Source: a virus
Taxonomy: Duplodnaviria > Heunggongvirae > Uroviricota > Caudoviricetes
Virus record (IMG/VR): IMGVR_UViG_2698536570_000001
Strand: one strand, 5' to 3'
Length of the DNA: 32,404 nucleotides
Below the pieces are notes generated by a model that did not search any database, had not been told where the DNA came from, and worked only from the letters and a program-made list of their open reading frames with translations. The position numbers and the translations under genes were made by a program. The stretch's first letter is position 1, and each line of letters opens with the position of its first letter. Shown one piece after another: positions 184-29,224 of this stretch.

Positions 184-217
184 AAATTAAAAGATGGGAG
201 GGTGTTTGCCCCCTCCG
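184..217 (-). terminator. Candidate Rho-independent terminator closing the prophage late operon
   Basis: On the minus strand, GGAGGG...CCCTCC stem (plus 197-202 pairing with 210-215) followed by a U-rich tract (AUCUUUUAAUUU). It lies just downstream of the last late gene, which ends at 230. Confidence 0.5.
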
Positions 218-3553: not shown

Positions 3554-3907
3554 TTATGCCTCGCTTGTTACAGTCGTCTGGCCGTAGATTGTGTCAATGG
3601 AGGAAGTGAAGGTGACGCGACGGCTGGTGCCGTCATAATTGGTATCGAAGGAAAGAATCGACAGAACGCCCGGTGTGTCCTGTATGCGTTCACGTATAGC
3701 CAGGATGTAGACGTCAGATCGCTGTTTACCAAGCACCGACTGAACATACGGCGTGCCTTCCGTCAGATCGAGAAACCACTGACCGCGCCACAGCTCGAAG
3801 CGGGTTTTTACTGCCTGGGCGACACACTCCGGGCTGTCGATAAGGAAGGTATCGTCACCCTGCCCGAAAGTGTAATCGCCGTCAGCATCTTCGCGACGGT
3901 ATCGCAT
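3554..3907 (-). CDS. Small baseplate protein, gpW/gp25-like
   Basis: 117 aa, immediately downstream of the gpV-like gene and upstream of the gpJ-like gene. Confidence 0.5.
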   Translation of the reverse strand: MRYRREDADGDYTFGQGDDTFLIDSPECVAQAVKTRFELWRGQWFLDLTEGTPYVQSVLGKQRSDVYILAIRERIQDTPGVLSILSFDTNYDGTSRRVTFTSSIDTIYGQTTVTSEA

Positions 3908-4647
3908 TATTGCGGCCCTCCAGTAGTTCCCCCGCCTGTCTGAACTCCGCCATGTTTATGCGTGGCGACACTTATACCTGAAGCTGTCACATCATTCGTT
4001 ACCGTAACCGGCCCAAGCATCGTCGCAGTACCACCACTTTCTCCCATTCCCTGAGACAGGTTACCGTTAATCGTTACGTTGCCGTTCAGCGTGATAGTCG
4101 GGGATGTGATTGTCGTTCCACCTTCAGCCGTAGCCGTAAGCTGGCCCGGCGTTTTAATGGTGATGTTATGTCCTGCGGCGACCTCTACGAACGCCGCGCC
4201 ATCATCGGTTCGCAGCTGCGCGGCGCTAGTACTGATACCGCTGATTTTCTGTGCTTGCGACTGCGGGCCAACGATGGCGAACGCATCAGACAAGTCATGC
4301 TGGCGCGGGTCGACGGTCTCCTGAACGCCGCCGCTCTGCCACCAGAAATCTATGCATCGGTCAGCAAAGATCAGCAGACACTCGTCGCCTTCTTTTACCG
4401 GAAAGGTCAGCGTGCAACCGCCGCCGCGCGGAAAGATAACCGGCACATCCACCAGCGGTTTTAATTCGGTAGAGCCATCGCCAACAATACCGCGAAGCGC
4501 TACCTCTACCGTGCAGGTAACAGTATCAGGATCGAACGACTGAATGATGCCGGGCATCGCTACGCGCATCTGGGTAGACACCGAATCGGCAATGGCCTGC
4601 GCGGTCTGCTGCTCACCGCCGATCTGTGATTGAGTTGGAATTGGCAT
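3907..4647 (-). CDS. Baseplate spike/assembly protein, gpV-like
   Basis: 246 aa with a Gly/Thr-rich C-terminus (TITLNGNVTINGNLSQG...GGGTTGG) typical of spike beta-helices. ATG at 4647-4645. Confidence 0.65.
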   Translation of the reverse strand: MPIPTQSQIGGEQQTAQAIADSVSTQMRVAMPGIIQSFDPDTVTCTVEVALRGIVGDGSTELKPLVDVPVIFPRGGGCTLTFPVKEGDECLLIFADRCIDFWWQSGGVQETVDPRQHDLSDAFAIVGPQSQAQKISGISTSAAQLRTDDGAAFVEVAAGHNITIKTPGQLTATAEGGTTITSPTITLNGNVTINGNLSQGMGESGGTATMLGPVTVTNDVTASGISVATHKHGGVQTGGGTTGGPQ

Positions 4648-4658
4648 AAAAACCCCAT

Positions 4659-4682
4659 AAAAAAAGCCGCTATATGCGGCTT
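4659..4682 (-). terminator. Intrinsic terminator downstream of the moron pair
   Basis: Minus strand reads AAGCCGC-AUAUA-GCGGCUU followed by a U-run (7 consecutive T in total, 2 inside the stem). It lies between the moron stop (4701) and the gpV start (4647). Confidence 0.6.
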
Positions 4683-4700
4683 ATCTAAAACATATATATT

Positions 4701-5087
4701 TCAACCTATCTTATAAAGGTCAACTAATTTTAAAAAACCACCACTACCACAAGCTGTAAACCTAATAAAATAAGGCTCACCAATATTAATCATGCTATTA
4801 ACTATATCGTTATCATTTTTTGATAATTCTTCAAAGCCAGTAGGAATGACAAAAACTTTACTACCAACACCCTGGAATCTTATTAATTTTATAGTGGCTC
4901 CACTGTCAGAATATTGTGTTCCTTTTGCCACTGCCAAACCTTCATGAAGTTCACATCCCTCAAGATTGGCGTCGCTCAGTCCCTTCACTGACTGGCTACC
5001 CGTCAATTGATCATAACTTATCTTAACTTCTGCATTCGAAATGAAAGATGTAAGCACCATCCCTAGCATAAGTAAAATTCGAATCAT
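4701..5087 (-). CDS. Secreted small protein of unknown function (moron, 128 aa)
   Basis: ATG at 5087-5085 with a GAGG Shine-Dalgarno sequence 6 nt upstream. N-terminal hydrophobic signal-peptide-like segment (MIRILLMLGMVLTSFISNA). Visibly AT-rich compared with the surrounding tail genes. Confidence 0.55.
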   Translation of the reverse strand: MIRILLMLGMVLTSFISNAEVKISYDQLTGSQSVKGLSDANLEGCELHEGLAVAKGTQYSDSGATIKLIRFQGVGSKVFVIPTGFEELSKNDNDIVNSMINIGEPYFIRFTACGSGGFLKLVDLYKIG

Positions 5088-5106
5088 TTTTTCCTCGATG
5101 TAGTAA

Positions 5107-5457
5107 TCAGTTAACTTTTATACAGTCGTAAGTAGCATACTGACGTGGAGCGTTCATGTTGGCTTGCAGCCACTGAGCGTTGAGAATGGCTTTGCCGTTA
5201 CGCTTGATGTATTCGAGCCCTATCCACCGGCCAGGCTGGTCAGTAGCCATGCGCCATTCCATCTTAATGTTCTCGTAGTCTTCTTTTTGCTTAAGGAACG
5301 TTACCTTCTGACTTTCAGGATTCGCACCGTTAATCCGTGCCCATCCATCATTTGTCGGGCTCGTGCCCAAGTGGAAAGGCCCACACTGGGAATCAGCATG
5401 AGCCACGCCCGCCAAGGCAAAAGAGCTGCAAGCAATCATCAGGATGAGTTTTTTCAT
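5107..5457 (-). CDS. Secreted small protein of unknown function (moron, 116 aa)
   Basis: ATG at 5457-5455, 3 nt after the gpD-like stop. Signal-peptide-like N-terminus (MKKLILMIACSSFALAGVAHA) and two Cys residues (C25, C112). Confidence 0.55.
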   Translation of the reverse strand: MKKLILMIACSSFALAGVAHADSQCGPFHLGTSPTNDGWARINGANPESQKVTFLKQKEDYENIKMEWRMATDQPGRWIGLEYIKRNGKAILNAQWLQANMNAPRQYATYDCIKVN

Positions 5458-5460
5458 TTT

Positions 5461-6522
5461 TTAAAACGTCCGGTTAAGTGATGCGTTACTCTGCAAATCG
5501 CGGCTGCCACGCGCGAAGCACATCAAATCCATGTACCACGCCTGACCTCTGGTGTCGCCAGTATAGTCGATAGCTTTGACGATATAAACGCCATCCGTCG
5601 CAATGCTGGCTGCCTGTGACGTCGTGCCGGTCAGCACGCGGTTGCCGTTCTCTTCTGTTTCGGTGATACGCCCGGGCGACTGAGCGATTTCGCTATTGCC
5701 GAGCGCCGCGCGGTACACCGAAGCCTGATCGAGCTGGATAAGACCATTAATGCGGATGTTCGGGTTTATCAGGCACCGCACGTTTACGCCGCCGCCCATT
5801 GTCTGTTGCGGCATACCGATCAGGCCAGTATCGGCATTCAGCACGATGGCTTCGTGAATATATTTATCCTCCGGCACCATCTGGACCTGACCATCAACCA
5901 GTTGCCATGTCGCTTTGCACTGCGCAGCAATGTTATCCATCACGTTGCGGCTGGATGAGTAAATCGCGCGGCCACGAGGAAACACGGTATCAGGAAAATC
6001 GCCGGTAATGCCCTGTGTCACGCCGAACGCGTTGAAATCCTGCATCGTCGCCCGGTGCAGATCCGCAACGGTATAGCCAGCGGCAAGCGTGGTGATGGTA
6101 GTCGCGTAGAGGAACGCTTCGTGGTTACTGATGGCCTGAATCAGCACCCAGGAATCGGTGATGTTGTCCTTCCCGGTGACGGTGAAGCGAATATCACCGT
6201 CAAATATCAGGCCGTAGTTCTGACCGTTCACCTGCCCTACCTGGTCTGGTGAAATCTCCCGGGCGACACCAACCTGGCTCGCATCAACATCCGGCGCAAT
6301 ACCGTCATACCCGGCAATGATGCGAATTTTTGCAAACTCCTGCCCCAGTATCTTGTTCGTGGTATCGGTCGAAAGGTTGTAAATTTTCACGTTTGCCACG
6401 CGCGGCCAGCGTGTATCTGCCCACTCAATCTGGAACGTGACCTTAAAATCAGACAGGGAAACGCCCTGCCCGTTCTGGTCCAACAGTTGCAGCTCAAAAT
6501 GGCGCATCCAGTTAAGAGACAT
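5461..6522 (-). CDS. Tail/baseplate protein, P2 gpD / Mu gpP-like
   Basis: 353 aa, third gene downstream of the tape measure. Size and position match the gpD late-control family. Confidence 0.65.
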   Translation of the reverse strand: MSLNWMRHFELQLLDQNGQGVSLSDFKVTFQIEWADTRWPRVANVKIYNLSTDTTNKILGQEFAKIRIIAGYDGIAPDVDASQVGVAREISPDQVGQVNGQNYGLIFDGDIRFTVTGKDNITDSWVLIQAISNHEAFLYATTITTLAAGYTVADLHRATMQDFNAFGVTQGITGDFPDTVFPRGRAIYSSSRNVMDNIAAQCKATWQLVDGQVQMVPEDKYIHEAIVLNADTGLIGMPQQTMGGGVNVRCLINPNIRINGLIQLDQASVYRAALGNSEIAQSPGRITETEENGNRVLTGTTSQAASIATDGVYIVKAIDYTGDTRGQAWYMDLMCFARGSRDLQSNASLNRTF

Positions 6523-6524
6523 TT

Positions 6525-6830
6525 CTACTCCTGCACGAAAATGAGGTGGCTGTATGTGCCGAGGTTGGTTTTGGTGGGCTCGTCCGGTGCGCCTACATCG
6601 CAGCCAACGAGCAGCGCCCCGTTAATACCTAGTTGAGGATATTGCTCAAGAAGATTTACACCGGTTACCAGCGGCACGCCAGAAAGAAGCGGTTCGCCAC
6701 TGCTATCTTGTACATCCAGAATCCAGCCAGCAGAATCACGCCAAATGACTCTCAGCGTGTATGTTGTCTCTGCTAACTGAATGCGAAATAGCTGGTTATC
6801 CGGCGATAAAGGGATTTCAGTTACATTCAT
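6525..6830 (-). CDS. Small phage tail protein
   Basis: 101-aa ORF tightly packed between two tail genes, overlapping the upstream gene by 4 nt. Confidence 0.45.
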   Translation of the reverse strand: MNVTEIPLSPDNQLFRIQLAETTYTLRVIWRDSAGWILDVQDSSGEPLLSGVPLVTGVNLLEQYPQLGINGALLVGCDVGAPDEPTKTNLGTYSHLIFVQE

Positions 6831-7453
6831 TGGATACCTATAGAGTTACCAAGACTGGTTCCTTTTAGTCCATCAAACCACCCTGTTGACTTAATTACCG
6901 ATTCATTTACTGGGGTGGTGGATTTAGTCCCGGAATTCTGCACCGCAGATGTACTAACCCCGTCCTGCATATCGGATTTATCAGCAACGGTGACATTTTT
7001 TGTATGCGTCATGATGACTTCACGCAGGGTAAGCGTGCAGTTCAGCACGTTCTCGCTGGTTTTATCGGTCGTCACCTCAATGGCTCGCACCAGCATATTG
7101 GTGTACACCCTCTTCCCGGTAACCACATCGAACGGTACGCGCTCAAGCTGCATATCCAGCAGCTTTTGGTATGTCTCCTTTGGGCTAAGCCCAGCGCTAA
7201 GACCGATTGAAGATGTATCAATGAAGTCCAGCAACGAACCGCCCCCAGCGAAGCCGCATTCCATTGTGACTTCACTGGGGCGCTTGTACGCATGATCGGC
7301 GATGAAACCCGAGGCACTATTCGTTGTTGGCTTCTCCACCGGGTGCTCAGTAATTTCGAGCGCATCAGAATGCTTTTCGGAGACGACCACGCTGGGAATT
7401 AATATGCCAATTCGCCGGGATTGCTGGCGAAAAATCGCTGATAAAATATCCAT
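6827..7453 (-). CDS. Phage tail protein (gpU-like or DNA-circulation-like)
   Basis: 208 aa, starts at the tape-measure stop. Called from synteny only. Confidence 0.45.
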   Translation of the reverse strand: MDILSAIFRQQSRRIGILIPSVVVSEKHSDALEITEHPVEKPTTNSASGFIADHAYKRPSEVTMECGFAGGGSLLDFIDTSSIGLSAGLSPKETYQKLLDMQLERVPFDVVTGKRVYTNMLVRAIEVTTDKTSENVLNCTLTLREVIMTHTKNVTVADKSDMQDGVSTSAVQNSGTKSTTPVNESVIKSTGWFDGLKGTSLGNSIGIQ

Positions 7454-9468
7454 TATCTCGGTCCTGCGGGGAGTTGCTGGGTTAACTGTGAATTCACGCC
7501 CTTTTGACGGTCAACAGTCAAACGGGCAGCCTCGCGCGGATCGGAAACGCCGTGGATGTTAATGTTCGTTTCCTGCTGAATCACCGGTGCGCTGGTGGGC
7601 ATATTGCTCATTACTTTCGGAATGTAGTTGCGCGTTTCCTGCGGCATTAACCCCATGCCATAGCGCTTAACATTCCCGATCCCCCAGTTATATGATGCCA
7701 GTGCTTTGCTAAGGTCTCCGCCGTTCTGCCGCAACAGCTGGCTGAGGTACTTAGCTGCGGCCTGAGCTGACTTTTGCGGGTCGAATACATCGTTTCCGCG
7801 AAGGCCCATGTCGCGCGCCGTACCATCCATAAACTGAAACAGACCTTTAGCGCCAGCGCCTGAAACGGCGAACTGATTACCGCCAGATTCCGTTATGGCC
7901 ACACTGCGCAATAACCCCTCCGGAAGCCGGTAGAGCTGTTCCAGGTTGGTAAGCATCGGCTGCATCCATCCCAGCAGTTCAGAGCCTGCTTTGGTTGGCT
8001 GTGGCCGCTTAACTGACTGGCCGAGCTGTTCAGGCTCATCATCACCGAACCAGCCGCGCACCGTTCGGCCCACGCTGCGAGGATCGAATCCCCAGTGCTC
8101 TTTAATCCAGTCGGCGGTACCGTTGGCGCTGTCTGTTACCATCGGCATCGCTGACGGATTTTCGCTGCCCTGATTAAGCATCTGTTTGCCGATGCTGGCG
8201 GCATCAGCCCAGCGGCCATCTTTAATGGCGTTGAGCAGGTCGGCGATCATGTTCAGCATTTTGCTGAACTCACCCATCTGGTCAATGAAGTTGCTAAAAT
8301 CCCACTTTAGGGACCATGACTTGGGGTCAATACCGAGCAACTTAGCCAGCGCTTTTGTCAGGTCCGTAACAGTCTTTTTCAGGTCACCAATCATTTTGAC
8401 GGCCTGATCAATTTCAGTCTTCCATTTCCCCCAGTCAATCAGGCTTTTGCCACCTTCTTTCCACGTCTGGTAATCATCCAAGAGCAGACCAAGTGCAATA
8501 ATAAGCGTCGTTATCATGCCCAAGGGTGATGACATGAAAGCGGTATTTAGCAGCCGCCATGCAACCAACAGCCCACTGAACAATGCGATAAGCTGCTGCG
8601 TGGCTGGGTTCAGCTTTTTGAACCAGGCGATCACACCCTCAACAGCTTGCCCAGTTCGCCATAACACGCGGGTAATCGCGTCACCTGCCCAGAGAATTCC
8701 TTTGATGATCTTCGTGATGACCGCTTCAATCTTCGGCCAGTTGTCGAGTATCTGCCTGCGGAAGTTATCAATACTGCCAGCAAGGCCACCAGCTAGGTTA
8801 GAGCCAATCTTGTCTTTCGCCTGTCCAAGCGTCATCGTCAGATTACGCATGGAGGTCATGAAAATATTGGACTGTTTAGCCGCTGACTCAGCATTAAAAC
8901 CAATACGCTTTGCCGTCAACGCGTACTCAGAACTGAGCTGCCCCATCCCTCTGCGCATCGCCATCAGCGTGTTTTCATCGATGCCAAGCATCTGCGCGTA
9001 TTGTTTCGCGCGGTAATACGGCATGTTGTTGAGCTTTTGCCCAACGCCAGTAAAGATGGCCGCAGTATCACGCATCTTTCCGCTGGCATCGCGGGTCTGT
9101 ACGCCCAGACGGTTCAGGAACCCTTCCGCCCCCGGATTGCTACGCATGAAACCAGCCAACCCTTCAAGAGAGGACATGGCCGACTCGGCGCTGGCACCGG
9201 TTTGCGATGCGGCATAGCCCAGCGCTTTGATGCCCTGGACGCTGGCCCCCGTCCGCTGGGATGCCCAGTAAATTTTATCCAGACCATTCGCGATCTGGGT
9301 GGTAAATCCGACAATGCTAAGCGCTGAGCCTTTCACCACCGCGCCGACCTTCAGAACGTTCGCGGTAACGCCTTTCAGCACGGCTTCAAACTTATTAGCG
9401 CCAGCCTGATCGATATCGAATCCCAGCGAAACAAGGAAATCTTTAATCGTATCTGCGTTACCGCTCAT
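7453..9468 (-). CDS. Tail tape measure protein with a C-terminal lytic transglycosylase (SLT) domain
   Basis: 671 aa, ATG at 9468-9466 with GGAG upstream. N-terminal two-thirds is helix-rich with a hydrophobic segment. C-terminus carries SLT motifs (ESGGN, GAKGLFQFM, ASYNWG). Confidence 0.8.
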   Translation of the reverse strand: MSGNADTIKDFLVSLGFDIDQAGANKFEAVLKGVTANVLKVGAVVKGSALSIVGFTTQIANGLDKIYWASQRTGASVQGIKALGYAASQTGASAESAMSSLEGLAGFMRSNPGAEGFLNRLGVQTRDASGKMRDTAAIFTGVGQKLNNMPYYRAKQYAQMLGIDENTLMAMRRGMGQLSSEYALTAKRIGFNAESAAKQSNIFMTSMRNLTMTLGQAKDKIGSNLAGGLAGSIDNFRRQILDNWPKIEAVITKIIKGILWAGDAITRVLWRTGQAVEGVIAWFKKLNPATQQLIALFSGLLVAWRLLNTAFMSSPLGMITTLIIALGLLLDDYQTWKEGGKSLIDWGKWKTEIDQAVKMIGDLKKTVTDLTKALAKLLGIDPKSWSLKWDFSNFIDQMGEFSKMLNMIADLLNAIKDGRWADAASIGKQMLNQGSENPSAMPMVTDSANGTADWIKEHWGFDPRSVGRTVRGWFGDDEPEQLGQSVKRPQPTKAGSELLGWMQPMLTNLEQLYRLPEGLLRSVAITESGGNQFAVSGAGAKGLFQFMDGTARDMGLRGNDVFDPQKSAQAAAKYLSQLLRQNGGDLSKALASYNWGIGNVKRYGMGLMPQETRNYIPKVMSNMPTSAPVIQQETNINIHGVSDPREAARLTVDRQKGVNSQLTQQLPAGPR

Positions 9469-23596: not shown

Positions 23597-23980
23597 CTAT
23601 GCTACATGTTTAATTTTCTCTACACGTTTCCGGTTTTTAAACGCACTATCCAGAACCGGGTAAATCATAAACAACGAGGCATTGAGGATTTCGTCAACTT
23701 CCCGACGACAGGTTGCGAGCGATGGTTTTTGAATGCGCCCTCCGCCCCGGCATAACATCTTGCGAGGTCTTGCGACGCGATGATAGTAAGATGCAATGGC
23801 GTGCTTGGAAGATCCATGGGCGTAGTAGCTGAGGAGGATGCCAAAGGCTTTCTTGTCAATGTACATGACGGAATCGACGACCTGAGAAATCAACATTCCA
23901 TCATCATCATTGCACATTGGCCTTGTCATAACTCTTCCCGGCTCTACGCTCTCCATGAACTTCGCTATTACGCTGCTCAT
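23597..23980 (-). CDS. Late-gene antiterminator Q-like protein (short, QuuD-like)
   Basis: 127 aa, immediately upstream of the S/R lysis cassette and downstream of ninH/rusA. Size and position match the short Q family (DLP12 QuuD is recalled as the same length). Confidence 0.55.
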   Translation of the reverse strand: MSSVIAKFMESVEPGRVMTRPMCNDDDGMLISQVVDSVMYIDKKAFGILLSYYAHGSSKHAIASYYHRVARPRKMLCRGGGRIQKPSLATCRREVDEILNASLFMIYPVLDSAFKNRKRVEKIKHVA

Positions 23981-24075
23981 GCGCTTTTCCAGACGACCTG
24001 AATAAACCTATGCGCCCCACAGTTCAAGCCAGCCATTCAGCCACTCGTGCTGCTCTTTGGTGAGGTTTAGTTCTC

Positions 24076-24270
24076 TTATGCCCATCGTCTTCCCCTCTTG
24101 CCCTGTTTGACCATCAGGACGCCGTTAACTATTACGTGACGCTCGCCTTTGCTGTCTCGGTTGTACTTGAGCACTGTTCCTCTTGCGCAGGAAAGCATCC
24201 TTGCCACTTCGGTCTGATTGCCTCGTGTCTGGATAAGAAGCTCTGGTATCGTTTGAATTGTGGCGTTCAT
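24076..24270 (-). CDS. ninH: NinH-like small DNA-binding protein
   Basis: 64 aa with a motif (GNQTEVARMLSCARGTVLKY) matching recalled lambda NinH (GNQTEVARRLKCSRGTVRKY). Canonical position between rusA and Q. Confidence 0.7.
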   Translation of the reverse strand: MNATIQTIPELLIQTRGNQTEVARMLSCARGTVLKYNRDSKGERHVIVNGVLMVKQGKRGRRWA

Positions 24271-26915: not shown

Positions 26916-27293
26916 AAAAGCCCTAATTATCCCGTTGAGTTCAAAATCAAAATGGTTGAACTCTCGCATCGACCAGAGATCTCCGTAGCGCAACTCGCTC
27001 GTGAGCATGGGATCAACGATAATTTGCTGTTCAAGTGGCGCCAGTACTGGCGCGAAGGAAAACTACGTCCTCCTTCAACAACAGAAAACAACGTGCCTGA
27101 GCTGCTCCCGATAACACTTGATGCCGAAGATGTTGTCCCTGCAACCTCCCCCCGGTCACAACCTGTAGCTGCTGCGGCACCTGAATCACTCAATATCAGC
27201 TGTGAAGTGACGTTCCGGCACGGATCACTCCGTCTGAATGGTGCCATCAGCGAAAATATCCTGAACCTGCTGATACGGGAGCTCAAACGTTGA
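26916..27293 (+). CDS. tnpA: IS66 TnpA (orf1), 5'-truncated by the gap
   Basis: The reading frame is open from the gap edge (KSPNYPVEFKIKMVELSHRPEISVAQLAREHGINDNLLFKW). HTH-type transposase accessory protein; the true N-terminus is probably in the gap. Confidence 0.7.
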   Translation, partial: KSPNYPVEFKIKMVELSHRPEISVAQLAREHGINDNLLFKWRQYWREGKLRPPSTTENNVPELLPITLDAEDVVPATSPRSQPVAAAAPESLNISCEVTFRHGSLRLNGAISENILNLLIRELKR

Positions 27294-27637
27294 TCCCATT
27301 ACCATCAGGGACAAAGATCTGGCTGGTCGCTGGCATCACCGATATGAGAAACGGCTTCAACGGCCTGGCGGCAAAGGTGCAGACGATGCTGAAAGACGAT
27401 CCGATGTCAGGTCACGTTTTTATCTTCCGTGGGCGTAATGGCAGTCAGGTAAAGCTCCTCTGGTCTACCGGCGATGGACTGTGTCTGCTGACCAAACGGC
27501 TGGAGCGCGGCCGCTTCGCCTGGCCGTCAGCCCGGGATGGCAAAGTGTTCCTCACACCGGCACAGCTGGCGATGCTCCTTGAAGGTATCGACTGGCGGCA
27601 GCCTAAAAGACTGCTTACGTCACTGACTATGTTGTAG
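27290..27637 (+). CDS. tnpB: IS66 TnpB (orf2)
   Basis: 115 aa (IPLPSGTKIWLVAGITDMRNGFNGLAAKVQ...) matching the recalled IS66 Orf2 signature. Apparent TTG start overlapping the tnpA stop. Confidence 0.85.
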   Translation: MIPLPSGTKIWLVAGITDMRNGFNGLAAKVQTMLKDDPMSGHVFIFRGRNGSQVKLLWSTGDGLCLLTKRLERGRFAWPSARDGKVFLTPAQLAMLLEGIDWRQPKRLLTSLTML

Positions 27638-27685
27638 GCCTCTTTATCCTGGTCGACGCTGAATGAGCCTGGTAATATACCCGGT

Positions 27686-29224
27686 ATGAACAGCTTACTT
27701 CCTGACGATATCGATGAACTGAAACGTCTCCTTGCCGAACAGGAGGCGCTGAACCGTGCCCTTCTGGAAAAGCTGAACGAGCGTGAACGCGAAATAGATC
27801 ACCTGCAGGCGCAACTGGATAAGCTGCGCCGGATGAACTTCGGCAGCCGCTCCGAAAAAGTCTCCCGCCGTATCGCGAAGATGGAAGCCGACCTTAAGCA
27901 GTTGCAGAAAGAAAGCGATACCCTTACCGGCCGGGTGGATGACCCGGCCGTGCAGCGCCCGCTGCGGCAGACCCGTACCCGCAAACCGTTCCCTGAATCA
28001 CTTCCCCGTGACGAAAAACGGCTGCTGCCGGCAGCGTCATGCTGCCCGGAATGTGGTGGTGCGCTGAGTTACCTGGGTGAAGATGCCGCCGAACAGCTGG
28101 AGCTGATGCGCAGCGCCTTCCGGGTTATCCGGACAGTACGTGAAAAGCATGCCTGTACTCAGTGCGATGCCATCGTGCAGGCCCCCGCGCCTTCACGGCC
28201 CATCGAGCGGGGTATCGCAGGACCGGGGCTGCTGGCCCGCGTGCTGAGTTCAAAGTATGCAGAGCACACCCCGCTGTACCGCCAGTCTGAAATATACGGC
28301 CGCCAGGGTGTGGAGCTGAGCCGCTCACTGCTGTCGGGCTGGGTGGATGCGTGTTGCCGGCTACTGTCACCGCTGGAAGGGGCGCTTCAGGACTATGTGC
28401 TGACTGACGGTAAGCTCCATGCTGATGACACGCCTGTCCCGGTGCTGTTGCCAGGTAATAAGAAAACGAAGACCGGGCGGTTGTGGACGTACGTTCGTGA
28501 CGACCGTAACGCCGGGTCAGAGCTGGCGCCGGCAGTGTGGTTCGCTTACAGCCCGGACAGAAAAGGTATCCACCCGCAGAGCCATCTCGCTGGCTTCAGC
28601 GGTGTTCTGCAGGCGGATGCGTACGCCGGGTTCAACGAACTGTACCGCAATGGACAGATAACGGAAGCTGCCTGCTGGGCTCATGCCCGCCGCAAGATCC
28701 ACGATGTGCACGTTCGCACCCCGTCAGCGCTGACGGAGGAAGCCCTGAAACGGATCGGTGAGTTATATGCCATCGAGGCGGAAATAAGGGGGATGCCGGC
28801 GAAGCGACGCCTTGCAGAACGTCAGCAAAAAGCTAAACCGCGGCTGAAATCCCTGGAAAGCTGGCTGCGTGAAAAGGTGAAAACGCTGTCGCGACACTCA
28901 GAACTGGCGAAAGCGTTCACGTACGTACTGAACCAGTGGCCGGCGCTGGCTTACTATACTGACGACGGCTGGGCCGAGGCAGATAACAACATAGCTGAGA
29001 ATGCGCTACGGATGGTCAGCCTGGGCCGCAAAAACTACCTGTTCTTCGGTTCGGATCATGGAGGAGAGCGGGGAGCGCTGCTGTACAGCCTGATCGGGAC
29101 ATGCAAACTGAACGGAGTGGAGCCAGAAAGCTACCTTCGCCATGTGCTTGATGTTATAGCTGACTGGCCGATAAACCGGGTCAGCGAACTACTCCCCTGG
29201 CGCGTAGCACTGCCAACTGAATAA
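27686..29224 (+). CDS. tnpC: IS66-family transposase TnpC (orf3)
   Basis: 512 aa with an N-terminal coiled coil/leucine zipper, a zinc-finger-like CPECGG...CTQCD, and the conserved IS66 catalytic region. Confidence 0.9.
   Translation: MNSLLPDDIDELKRLLAEQEALNRALLEKLNEREREIDHLQAQLDKLRRMNFGSRSEKVSRRIAKMEADLKQLQKESDTLTGRVDDPAVQRPLRQTRTRKPFPESLPRDEKRLLPAASCCPECGGALSYLGEDAAEQLELMRSAFRVIRTVREKHACTQCDAIVQAPAPSRPIERGIAGPGLLARVLSSKYAEHTPLYRQSEIYGRQGVELSRSLLSGWVDACCRLLSPLEGALQDYVLTDGKLHADDTPVPVLLPGNKKTKTGRLWTYVRDDRNAGSELAPAVWFAYSPDRKGIHPQSHLAGFSGVLQADAYAGFNELYRNGQITEAACWAHARRKIHDVHVRTPSALTEEALKRIGELYAIEAEIRGMPAKRRLAERQQKAKPRLKSLESWLREKVKTLSRHSELAKAFTYVLNQWPALAYYTDDGWAEADNNIAENALRMVSLGRKNYLFFGSDHGGERGALLYSLIGTCKLNGVEPESYLRHVLDVIADWPINRVSELLPWRVALPTE

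What the first reader, a model, noticed from the sequence alone, without database searches (positions are those of the whole stretch)
4648..5460. Two-gene secreted-protein moron cassette with its own terminator inside the baseplate operon
Between the gpD-like gene (ends 5461) and the gpV-like gene (starts 4647) lie two small genes of 116 and 128 aa, each with an N-terminal signal-peptide-like segment. The second is clearly AT-rich and is followed by a canonical hairpin plus U-run terminator at 4659-4682, only 12 bp from the gpV start. Gene plus own terminator inside a late operon is the hallmark of a moron acquired independently of the tail genes. Exported prophage proteins at such sites include receptor-blocking superinfection-exclusion factors (Cor/Llp-type) and lysogenic-conversion factors. 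Neither protein matches a family I recognise.
Basis: partly seen in the sequence, partly recalled or inferred. Interest (0 to 1): 0.55.

Follow-up and report, generated by a model that had tools for sequence, protein, structure and literature searches.

The report
Exported-protein gene plus prophage cargo hotspot
The two small secreted-protein genes are real, but only the second is a swappable add-on: the first is a near-universal, fast-diversifying exported protein of this prophage family, and the gap after it is a hotspot where related prophages carry anti-phage defence genes.

Summary
Two ORFs of 116 aa (A, 5107-5457, minus strand) and 128 aa (B, 4701-5087) lie between the baseplate hub and spike genes. 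Both have signal-peptide-like N-termini. B is AT-rich, and a hairpin plus T-run sits just before the spike start.

The "two-gene moron with its own terminator" reading is only partly right.
- A (phrog_3443) follows the hub gene in 144 of 152 related junctions. In the rest another exported protein or lipoprotein takes its place.
- Backbones with near-identical hub and spike still carry A alleles only about 66% identical.
- B is one of at least 35 alternative cargoes in a low-GC slot between A and the spike gene. Other cargoes include Phd/Doc, PD-Lambda-1, PDC-S42 and PDC-S57. Some relatives have an empty slot.
- The terminator is a backbone feature. It occurs in 122 of 125 loci, including cargo-less ones, with compensatory stem changes.
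- A promoter-like TTTATA-17-TATACT lies in the hub 3' end. Its final T is the most constrained synonymous site in the hub gene.

The prophage is lambdoid and its Q gene is broken.

Best model: a nested promoter-A-cargo-terminator unit whose exported products act in the envelope, probably in superinfection exclusion. That function is inferred, not shown.

The parts
5461..6522 (-). Baseplate hub gene (353 aa). It is the left conserved flank, and its 3' end carries the candidate promoter.
   Evidence: PF22759 E217_GP41 (E = 6.9e-6) and phrog_196 'baseplate hub' (E = 5e-84). Present in every related locus.
5560..5588 (-). Candidate sigma-70 promoter TTTATA-17 nt-TATACT embedded in hub codons 312-321, about 100 nt upstream of the A start codon.
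   Evidence: Consensus scan, 9 of 12 matches. Thr321 is ACT in 99% of 108 distinct hub genes, the lowest synonymous entropy of 195 codon columns (0.04 against a mean of 0.66). Codons 303-327 form the least synonymously variable stretch of the gene. Promoter function is inferred, not shown.
5107..5457 (-). Gene A: 116-aa exported protein. Signal peptide is residues 1-21 (5395-5457). The mature part is an 8-stranded beta-barrel with an invariant Cys25/Cys112 pair.
   Evidence: phrog_3443, E = 1.8e-44. 129 homologous clusters in Enterobacterales. Alignment A1. AlphaFold model pLDDT 86.9. First ORF after the hub in 144 of 152 junctions.
4672..5105 (-). Exchangeable cargo cassette of this prophage: RBS GAGGA (5092-5096), gene B, and the 5' arm and loop of the terminator.
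   Evidence: Homology to E. coli 730V1 and ECONIH5 prophages stops at 4670/4671 and resumes at 5106-5111. GC 0.30-0.41. The slot ranges from 58 nt to 2.3 kb and holds 35 cargo clusters in 40 loci.
4701..5087 (-). Gene B: 128-aa exported protein. Signal peptide is residues 1-19 (5031-5087). The roughly 85-aa core has invariant Cys45 and a C113-G-S-G-G motif.
   Evidence: No Pfam, PHROG, NCBIfam or PADLOC family. Homologues sit in accessory positions of other prophages and in a defence island.
4657..4682 (-). Intrinsic terminator (AAGCCGC ATATA GCGGCTT plus T-run), followed by the spike RBS GGGG (4653-4656).
   Evidence: A hairpin plus T-run sits at this position in 122 of 125 related loci, with 40 distinct hairpins and compensatory stem changes.
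3907..4647 (-). Spike gene (246 aa; gp138-type N-terminal domain plus GpV Apex motif). It is the right conserved flank.
   Evidence: PF18352 (E = 9e-42) and PF18946. PGAP calls it 'phage baseplate assembly protein V'.

Best explanation
The region is a transcription unit nested inside the tail operon of a lambdoid prophage with an E217/Pam3-type contractile tail (E. coli AW1.7). It has three parts.

1. A resident gene, A, directly after the hub gene. It encodes a small periplasmic beta-barrel protein. Nearly all relatives have it, but it is highly allelic.
2. An exchangeable low-GC slot, filled here by B. B is a small secreted protein from a family that lives in accessory positions of prophages and other mobile elements.
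3. A conserved intrinsic terminator just before the spike gene.

Proposed mechanism (inferred):
- In a lysogen, host RNA polymerase starts at a promoter embedded in the hub 3' end, transcribes A and the cargo, and stops at the terminator.
- In lytic growth, Q-modified polymerase reads through the terminator. A, which is often translationally coupled to the hub gene, is then also made late.
- A and B are exported by Sec and oxidised to disulfide-bonded periplasmic proteins.
- There they most likely interfere with incoming phages (adsorption, envelope penetration or DNA entry), that is, superinfection exclusion.

Shown here: gene reality, export signals, conservation and diversity patterns, hotspot behaviour with known defence cargo, terminator conservation, and site-specific synonymous constraint at the -10 element.

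Inferred: promoter activity, expression in the lysogen, periplasmic location and anti-phage function.
For: Architecture:
- A follows the hub gene in 144 of 152 distinct junctions. Nearly all of the remainder have another signal-peptide protein or lipoprotein there (two junctions had no qualifying ORF).
- The A-to-spike gap runs from 58 nt to 2.3 kb, at GC 0.35-0.47 against 0.50-0.57 in the flanks.
- That gap holds 35 unrelated cargo clusters on either strand, and two A-seeded loci (L016, L024) have no cargo at all.

Cargo includes known defence systems:
- PD-Lambda-1 (E = 5e-83), PDC-S42 and PDC-S57.
- Phd/Doc.
- T5orf172 and ClpP-like domains.

Terminator:
- Present in 122 of 125 loci, with compensatory stem variants such as CCCGC/GCGGG, GCCGC/GCGGC, CCAGC/GCTGG and CCCACC/GGTGGG.

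Promoter:
- TTTATA-17-TATACT at 5588-5560.
- Thr321 is ACT in 99% of hub genes, while other Thr columns use ACT in about 5-15%.
- This is the lowest synonymous entropy of 195 columns.

Regulatory context:
- The prophage has N, a CI-like repressor, Cro, CII, a nin region, Q and a lambda-family holin. Terminator read-through by Q-modified polymerase is established lambda biology.

Export:
- Signal peptides and two invariant cysteines are kept across both families.
- The A model is an 8-stranded barrel at pLDDT 86.9.

Arms-race signature:
- Among 41 loci with hub at least 95% identical, median identity is 98% for spike and 99% for gpW, but 66% for A.
- At 85% identity the A position has 20 clusters, against 4 for hub and 8 for spike.

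B family context:
- Next to tail or tailspike genes on the opposite strand in Klebsiella phage RothD and a Burkholderia gladioli prophage.
- Beside the CI-like repressor in a B. glumae prophage.
- In a SIR2/TIR defence island.
- In integrative and satellite-like elements.

Precedent:
- HK97 gp15 is a tail-operon moron with its own promoter and terminator that mediates superinfection exclusion (PMC3594210).
Against: - No functional data exist for either protein family.
- The B model is unreliable (pLDDT 54.7).
- The promoter match is weak in the -35 element, and promoter-like sites overall are not enriched (12 found, 10.9 expected).
- Low synonymous diversity in the hub 3' end could partly reflect recombination homogenising a crossover anchor.
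- The A start codon is often coupled to the hub stop. That fits a purely late, phage-directed role as well as it fits lysogenic expression.
- A alleles show only weak association with tail-fibre tips (AMI 0.02-0.15). Simple masking of the phage's own receptor is therefore not supported.
- The loci sampled are phylogenetically related and were partly seeded with A itself.
Confidence: 0.55

Rival explanations
1. First reader's model. A and B were acquired together as one two-gene moron with its own terminator, and they act as Cor/Llp-type receptor blockers.
For: Both are exported. B is AT-rich. A terminator follows B. The A+B pair recurs in Omnitron, Rahnella and Enterobacter prophages.
Against: - A is present in about 95% of junctions without B.
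- The A and B identities are decoupled, at 65% and 98% in Omnitron.
- The cassette breakpoint falls at the A stop codon.
- The terminator is universal and also present in cargo-less loci.
- There is no conserved lipobox and no Cor or Llp homology.
Confidence: 0.1
2. A is a phage morphogenetic or virion protein, such as a hub-associated or membrane-inserting tail-tip factor. On this view the hydrophobic N-terminus is not a cleaved signal peptide, and only B is accessory.
For: A has strict synteny with the hub gene. Its start is frequently overlapped or coupled to the hub stop (gaps of -28 to +23 nt). It is present in almost all relatives.
Against: - The n-h-c signal peptide with an AxA site is conserved, while its sequence drifts freely.
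- The invariant Cys pair fits periplasmic oxidation.
- A is replaced by unrelated lipoproteins or secreted proteins in about 5% of backbones with otherwise near-identical tails.
- A is far more divergent than every structural neighbour.
- The E217 gene in the same position has no signal peptide and no similarity.
- Extra tandem A paralogues occur in some loci.
Confidence: 0.12
3. A, and possibly B, is a late-phase periplasmic factor serving the phage's own release. It would mask receptors or tail targets on lysing cells and debris so that progeny are not wasted (the T5 Llp logic). It would not be a lysogen-expressed immunity function.
For: A lies inside the late operon and is coupled to the hub gene. 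It is conserved across the lineage, including the independently isolated phage Mulock.
Against: - The site-specific constraint on the embedded -10 element and the universal terminator suggest an independent transcript.
- The slot downstream carries lysogen-benefit genes such as toxin-antitoxin and defence systems.
- The two timings are not mutually exclusive.
Confidence: 0.15
4. B is a lysogenic-conversion, host-interaction or toxin-related secreted factor unrelated to phage defence.
For: B is a secreted small protein. One family member is fused to an Adhesin_E domain and another to a PDZ domain. Many morons encode virulence or fitness factors (PMC3594210).
Against: Family members sit in defence-type neighbourhoods: a SIR2/TIR island, next to a CI-like repressor, and next to tail-fibre or tailspike genes. 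The same slot holds known defence systems. No toxin or adhesin domain is found in B itself.
Confidence: 0.08

Closest known systems
HK97 gp15 moron (Juhala et al. 2000; Cumby et al. 2012; reviewed in PMC3594210)
   Same: It is a small envelope-targeted protein encoded inside the tail operon of a lambdoid phage. It is described as having its own promoter and terminator, and it is expressed from the prophage. It blocks genome entry by other phages without blocking receptors.
   Different: - gp15 is an inner-membrane YebO-like protein, not a cleaved periplasmic beta-barrel, and there is no sequence similarity.
- Here the terminator and the resident gene A are backbone features of the whole lineage rather than an insertion unique to one phage.
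- A variable slot follows A.
P2-like prophage hotspots (Z/fun and old/tin; Rousset et al. 2022, as summarised in bioRxiv 10.1101/2024.10.15.618418)
   Same: A variable cargo locus lies between conserved phage genes, one of them downstream of a baseplate gene. It carries diverse defence systems and other accessory genes.
   Different: - The phage lineage differs: a lambdoid regulatory backbone with an E217/Pam3-type tail.
- The flanks differ: hub plus A on one side, terminator plus spike on the other.
- The slot is anchored by a conserved exported-protein gene and a conserved terminator.
Cor (phi80, N15, HK022) and T5 Llp receptor-blocking lipoproteins
   Same: These are small exported phage proteins encoded among or next to tail genes. 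They confer exclusion by acting at the outer membrane. Lipoproteins do occupy the A position in a few relatives.
   Different: - Window A and B have SPase-I-type signals with no conserved lipobox.
- There is no homology.
- A alleles do not clearly co-vary with the fibre tip.
T4 Sp (spackle), a periplasmic inhibitor of the tail lysozyme gp5 (own knowledge)
   Same: It is a small signal-peptide protein that acts in the periplasm against the cell-puncturing device of superinfecting phage. The tape-measure protein here carries an SLT transglycosylase domain, which would be a plausible target.
   Different: Spackle is reported as all-helical (own knowledge), whereas A is an all-beta barrel. There is no homology, and no evidence here for inhibition of a muralytic enzyme.
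Periplasmic 8-stranded beta-barrel binders and inhibitors (calycin/avidin-like; MliC/PliC lysozyme inhibitors; T6SS immunity proteins such as BtaiB)

Membership tests
Moron (Hendrix/Juhala sense) | Extra DNA present in some, but absent from other, closely related phages at the same junction | tested here: met
   Met for B only. B is replaced by Phd/Doc, by a 210-aa phrog_1349 protein, or by nothing in relatives, with breakpoints at 4670/4671 and 5106-5111. Not met for A, which is present in 144 of 152 junctions.
Moron (Hendrix/Juhala sense) | Base composition deviating from the neighbouring genes | tested here: met
   B has GC 0.30-0.41 against 0.55-0.60 in the flanks. Slots in 40 loci are 0.35-0.47 against 0.50-0.57. 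A is only mildly lower, at 0.47-0.51.
Moron (Hendrix/Juhala sense) | Own terminator | tested here: inconclusive
   A strong terminator follows B. An equivalent hairpin precedes the spike gene in 122 of 125 loci, including cargo-less ones, so it belongs to the backbone unit. The B-associated stem variant (GCCGC/GCGGC) does travel with B.
Moron (Hendrix/Juhala sense) | Own promoter, and expression from the repressed prophage | tested here: inconclusive
   No promoter-like site lies between A and B. A candidate promoter in the hub 3' end has an exceptionally constrained -10 element. Transcription itself cannot be tested with these tools.
Prophage defence/accessory hotspot | Conserved flanks with many unrelated alternative cargoes | tested here: met
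   35 cargo clusters among 61 ORFs in 40 loci, with slot sizes from 58 nt to 2.3 kb.
Prophage defence/accessory hotspot | Cargo includes recognised defence or toxin-antitoxin systems | tested here: met
   PD-Lambda-1 (E = 5e-83), PDC-S42 (2e-36) and PDC-S57 (2e-17). Phd/Doc annotated in ECONIH5. B itself matches no PADLOC model.
phrog_3443 (phage protein family of unknown function) | Significant full-length match to the family profile | tested here: met
   A scores E = 1.8e-44 over residues 4-116 against profile positions 5-114 of 115.
Cor/Llp-type exclusion lipoproteins | Lipobox with an invariant Cys at the cleavage site | tested here: not met
   The A and B families have AxA or SxA sites. 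The Cys at A residue 10 is not conserved. Lipobox proteins occur only as replacements or fusions at the A position in other loci.
Cor/Llp-type exclusion lipoproteins | Sequence homology to Cor or Llp | tested here: not met
   No Pfam, NCBIfam or PHROG hit of that kind.
Cor/Llp-type exclusion lipoproteins | Blocks the receptor used by the phage's own receptor-binding protein (co-variation with the RBP; adsorption block) | tested here: inconclusive
   AMI between A allele and fibre tip is 0.02-0.15, only marginally above shuffles, and the fibres are hyper-mosaic. Adsorption cannot be tested here.
MliC/PliC periplasmic lysozyme inhibitors | Family-specific sequence or structure match | tested here: not met
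Virion structural protein of the E217/Pam3-type baseplate | Homology to a mapped baseplate component, or a cytoplasmic (non-exported) sequence | tested here: not met
   There is no match to baseplate families, whereas the neighbours match Dit_like, Pam3_gp18, E217_GP41, gp138_N, Sheath_initiator and Baseplate_J. A carries a conserved signal peptide. E217 gp42 at the same position is unrelated. Presence in the virion cannot be tested here.

The most novel reading that the evidence does not exclude
A-family proteins (phrog_3443) and their non-homologous lipoprotein replacements would define a previously unrecognised 'exported-protein slot' next to the hub gene of a large family of enterobacterial lambdoid myoviral prophages. 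They would be a new class of periplasmic superinfection-exclusion factor that neutralises the incoming tail tip (spike or SLT-bearing tape measure) of related phages. Expression would come from a promoter written into the synonymous sites of the hub gene. The adjacent slot, bounded by a universal terminator, would be an unmined defence hotspot. B would be the founding member of a secreted CGSGG-motif anti-phage family spread across prophages of Gamma- and Betaproteobacteria.
Probability: 0.3. Interest if true: 0.6.

Novelty: new member of a known kind. Interest (0 to 1): 0.45.

Why it matters
The finding matters in four ways.

- **A place to mine for defence genes.** It pins down a specific and apparently undescribed accessory-gene hotspot: hub, A, slot, terminator, spike. 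The hotspot occurs in a widespread group of Enterobacterales prophages (E. coli, Salmonella, Klebsiella, Citrobacter, Serratia, Pantoea, Yersinia). It already holds PD-Lambda-1, PDC-S42, PDC-S57 and Phd/Doc, alongside about 30 cargo families with no assigned function.

- **Two candidate exclusion families.** It nominates two uncharacterised exported protein families as envelope-level exclusion factors. That class of phage resistance is far less catalogued than cytoplasmic defence systems.

- **A testable embedded promoter.** The -10 element sits in a structural gene and shows a clear synonymous-site footprint. This is a clean, testable example of overlapping coding and regulatory information.

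- **A caution for annotators.** 'Gene plus terminator' is not proof of recent acquisition. Here the terminator and the first gene are ancestral to the lineage.

Tried and rejected
- **Family scans.** Pfam, NCBIfam and PADLOC scans of A and B found nothing. PHROGs matched only A.
- **PDB sequence-profile searches.** Only chance-level hits for both families.
- **Fold searches for A.**
  - The best viral hit was a Serratia phage Scapp 'lipoprotein' at E = 0.035, too weak to use.
  - The afdb50 library was unavailable.
- **B structure.** pLDDT was 54.7 from a 4-sequence alignment, so no fold search was run on it.
- **A allele against tail-fibre tip.** Association was weak or inconclusive. A allele against spike type showed no tight linkage (AMI 0.22).
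- **E217 positional analogue.** E217 gp42, encoded between hub and spike, was rejected. It has no signal peptide and no similarity.
- **Pa193 'ripcord' proteins.** These were considered as analogues of A. They are encoded elsewhere (gp38 and gp39) and are not between hub and tip.
- **Literature.** Searches for the Salmonella Typhi locus tags STY1064-1066 returned nothing relevant.
- **Rfam.** Only sub-threshold matches were found, caused by the terminator hairpin.
- **Chance ORFs.** Rejected on conservation.
- **Antisense ORF.** The 105-aa ORF at 5164-5481 (+) was treated as spurious.
Full report
**1. The observation**

The window is the tail, lysis and nin region of a prophage of E. coli AW1.7. 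Window 4600-5500 matches that strain at 100% identity. All tail genes lie on the minus strand, in this order:

| Gene | Coordinates |
|---|---|
| Tape measure with C-terminal SLT domain | 7453-9468 |
| Dit-like protein | 6827-7453 |
| Pam3-gp18-type plug | 6525-6830 |
| Hub (E217_GP41 / phrog_196) | 5461-6522 |
| Gene A, 116 aa | 5107-5457 |
| Gene B, 128 aa | 4701-5087 |
| Spike (gp138-type N-terminal domain, GpV Apex) | 3907-4647 |
| gp25/W-like protein, Baseplate_J, DUF2612, fibre | further downstream |

- Both small proteins begin with a charged n-region, a hydrophobic core and an AxA or SxA site (AHA|DS in A, SNA|EV in B).
- GC drops to 0.30-0.41 over B, against 0.55-0.60 in the flanks.
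- A 7-bp GC-rich hairpin plus T-run at 4682-4657 is the first-listed terminator-like site in the first 12 kb. It folds at -12.5 kcal/mol, z = -2.6.

**2. A and B are not one cassette**

Close relatives share hub and spike genes at 96-99% identity. All keep a homologue of A directly after the hub gene, but they differ in what follows:

| Relative | What follows A |
|---|---|
| E. coli 730V1 | 210-aa phrog_1349 protein |
| E. coli ECONIH5 | Phd/Doc toxin-antitoxin pair |
| Citrobacter phage Omnitron | B |

Against 730V1 and ECONIH5, DNA homology stops at window 4670/4671, inside the 3' arm of the terminator. It resumes at 5106-5111, the stop codon of A. The exchangeable segment is therefore about 4672-5105: B with its GAGGA ribosome-binding site, plus the 5' arm and loop of the hairpin.

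In Omnitron, B is 98% identical but A only 65%. The exact B protein also occurs next to a 296-aa fused form of A and with two spike types. A and B therefore recombine independently.

**3. A is a resident gene, but hypervariable**

I surveyed loci seeded in three ways: with A (35 genome loci plus phage records), with the hub (80 IMG/VR loci) and with the DUF2612 wedge gene (80 loci). These gave 154 distinct hub-to-spike junctions.

- The first ORF after the hub belongs to the A family in 144 of the 152 junctions with a qualifying ORF.
- Among the exceptions examined in the hub-seeded set, the position holds another exported protein:
  - lipobox proteins of about 240 or 374 aa;
  - a 182-aa signal-peptide protein;
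  - a very divergent A-like protein.
- Some loci fuse an A domain to an N-terminal signal-peptide or lipoprotein domain of about 180 aa.

A is far more diverse than its neighbours. Among 41 loci with hub at least 95% identical to the window's, median identities were:

| Protein | Median identity |
|---|---|
| Spike | 98% |
| gpW | 99% |
| A | 66% (range 59-100%) |

In the wedge-seeded set at 85% identity, the number of clusters was:

| Protein | Clusters |
|---|---|
| Hub | 4 |
| gpW | 3 |
| gpJ | 5 |
| Spike | 8 |
| A position | 20 |
| Tail fibre | 56 |

Only the tail fibre exceeds the A position.

Other properties of A:

- It belongs to phrog_3443, a family of unknown function.
- It has 129 homologous clusters, all named sources being Enterobacterales and all 'hypothetical'.
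- The alignment keeps the signal peptide as a physicochemical feature only. Invariant residues include Cys25 and Cys112.
- AlphaFold gives a confident 8-stranded beta-barrel (pLDDT 86.9).

**4. The A-to-spike gap is a cargo hotspot**

In 40 loci the gap ranges from 58 nt (no cargo, loci L016 and L024) to 2.3 kb. Its GC is always lower than the flanks (0.35-0.47 against 0.50-0.57). It holds 61 ORFs in 35 unrelated clusters, on either strand. Recognisable cargo:

- Phd/Doc;
- PD-Lambda-1 (E = 5e-83), PDC-S42 and PDC-S57;
- T5orf172/MUG113, a ClpP-like protease, bPH_2 and DUF4236;
- an IS256-like transposase and extra A paralogues.

This behaviour matches known prophage hotspots such as P2 Z/fun and old/tin (bioRxiv 10.1101/2024.10.15.618418).

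**5. B**

- B has no Pfam, PHROG, NCBIfam or PADLOC family.
- A full HMMER scan found 43 distant representatives.
- Nearly all aligned members begin with a hydrophobic, signal-peptide-like N-terminus. The core is about 85 aa, with an invariant Cys and a C-G-S-G-G motif.
- Its AlphaFold model is unreliable (pLDDT 54.7).

Context is informative. Relatives of B occur in accessory positions of mobile elements:

- on the opposite strand next to the tailspike gene of Klebsiella phage RothD;
- between tail genes of a Burkholderia gladioli prophage;
- beside the CI-like repressor of a B. glumae lambdoid prophage;
- immediately after a SIR2 gene in a SIR2/TIR defence island;
- in a prophage remnant, an integrative element and a satellite-like element.

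These are the classic positions of lysogen-expressed accessory genes.

**6. The terminator belongs to the backbone**

A GC-rich hairpin plus T-run lies directly upstream of the spike ribosome-binding site in 122 of 125 loci, whatever the cargo, including cargo-less loci. There are 40 distinct hairpins with compensatory stem changes. The GCCGC/GCGGC stem variant does travel with B, and the hairpin is a recombination boundary.

**7. A candidate embedded promoter**

The scan lists TTTATA-17-TATACT at 5588-5560, inside hub codons 312-321.

- Across 108 distinct hub genes, Thr321 is ACT in 99%. Other Thr columns use ACT in about 5-15%.
- This is the most constrained of 195 synonymous columns (relative entropy 0.04 against a mean of 0.66).
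- Codons 303-327 have the lowest sliding synonymous entropy in the gene.
- That position is the invariant final T of a -10 hexamer.
- Codon 324, three codons away, varies freely. Regional homogenisation alone therefore does not explain the pattern.

**8. Regulatory context**

The prophage is lambdoid. It has N, a LexA-family CI-like repressor, Cro, CII, a nin region, Q and a lambda-family holin. Q-modified polymerase ignoring intrinsic terminators is established lambda biology. The terminator is therefore compatible with late expression of the spike and wedge genes, while it would stop transcripts that start at an internal promoter.

In this strain Q has an internal stop, and IS66-family elements sit in the nin region. 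The prophage is probably defective. Any current expression of A and B would have to come from an internal promoter.

**9. Model and rivals**

Best model: a nested unit of promoter (in the hub 3' end), A, cargo (here B) and terminator. Its exported, disulfide-bonded products act in the envelope, most probably against incoming phages. A is also made late, through coupling to the hub gene.

The functional step rests on analogy and context:

- HK97 gp15 as a precedent (PMC3594210);
- the defence cargo found in the same slot;
- the hypervariability of A;
- replacement of A by lipoproteins;
- the neighbourhoods of the B family.

I found no clear co-variation of A with the fibre tip (AMI 0.02-0.15). 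Simple masking of the phage's own receptor is therefore not supported. A target in the penetration machinery, or heterologous phages, remains open.

Rivals:

- A structural role for A is argued against by the export signals, the replaceability and the divergence. It is not excluded without virion proteomics.
- A purely late role in progeny protection remains possible.
- A non-phage conversion function for B remains possible.

**10. Verdict**

The finding is real and moderately interesting. The kind of feature is known: a prophage moron or defence hotspot with exclusion-type exported proteins. This particular locus appears undescribed in the literature I could search. That covers the conserved exported-protein gene, the universal terminator, the footprint of an embedded promoter and the two protein families.

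Noticed in passing
window 23597-24085 (-): The lambdoid Q antiterminator gene has an in-frame stop at codon 26, and PGAP also flags it as a pseudogene. The prophage is probably unable to switch on its late operon.
   Followed up: partly
window ~27290-29224 (+); L127 4895-9592: In the matching AW1.7 assembly the nin region holds two adjacent IS66-family elements (tnpA, tnpB, tnpC/ISKpn24). The ISKpn24 copy maps to window ORFs about 27290-29224. The second copy did not match the window's ORFs at the mapped coordinates, so its presence in the window is unconfirmed.
   Followed up: no
window 7453-9468 (-): The tape-measure protein (671 aa) carries a C-terminal SLT lytic transglycosylase domain. 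This is a periplasm-acting enzyme delivered by the tail, and a conceivable target for a periplasmic exclusion protein such as A.
   Followed up: no
L026 1289-2850; L022 5001-7530: Some relatives carry two or three tandem A paralogues in the slot. L026 also carries a duplicated fragment of the hub 3' end. These look like scars of recombination using the hub 3' end as a crossover anchor.
   Followed up: partly
L055 5069-5959; L104 5069-5947; L128 2091-2981: These loci have 292-296-aa proteins in which an N-terminal signal-peptide or lipobox domain of about 180 aa (no known family) is fused to a C-terminal A domain. B occurs downstream of this form as well.
   Followed up: partly
L053, L092, L105, L110 (5007-5825); L125 5089-6213; L112 and L119 5068-5619: Non-homologous replacements at the A position: lipobox proteins of about 240 or 374 aa sharing a Cys-rich C-terminal domain, and a 182-aa secreted protein. 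None matches Pfam or PHROGs.
   Followed up: partly
L137 3522-5468: In Burkholderia vietnamiensis a B-family gene lies 55 nt downstream of a SIR2_2 gene. The island also holds a TIR protein, a nucleoside deoxyribosyltransferase-like gene and QueC. A secreted protein may be a component or neighbour of a SIR2 defence system.
   Followed up: no
L036 2830-4060; L027 3407-4637: Two Pantoea/Erwinia prophage loci carry a 409-aa slot cargo with T5orf172/MUG113-type sequence features. It is probably the member behind the PD-Lambda-1 PADLOC match (E = 5e-83), but per-member mapping was not returned by the tool.
   Followed up: partly
window 5164-5481 (+): A 105-aa ORF lies antisense to gene A and the hub-A junction. 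No evidence of coding was sought, and it is probably spurious.
   Followed up: no
window 197-216 (-): A second strong terminator-like hairpin (GGAGGG...CCCTCC plus T-rich tail) lies downstream of the tail-fibre genes. It probably marks the end of the late operon.
   Followed up: no
L146 9595-10128 (Pseudomonas phage E217 gp42): The lytic phage E217 also has a gene between hub (gp41) and spike (gp43). It encodes a 177-aa protein with no signal peptide, unrelated to A. The hub-spike junction may be a generally permissive site in this tail type.
   Followed up: partly
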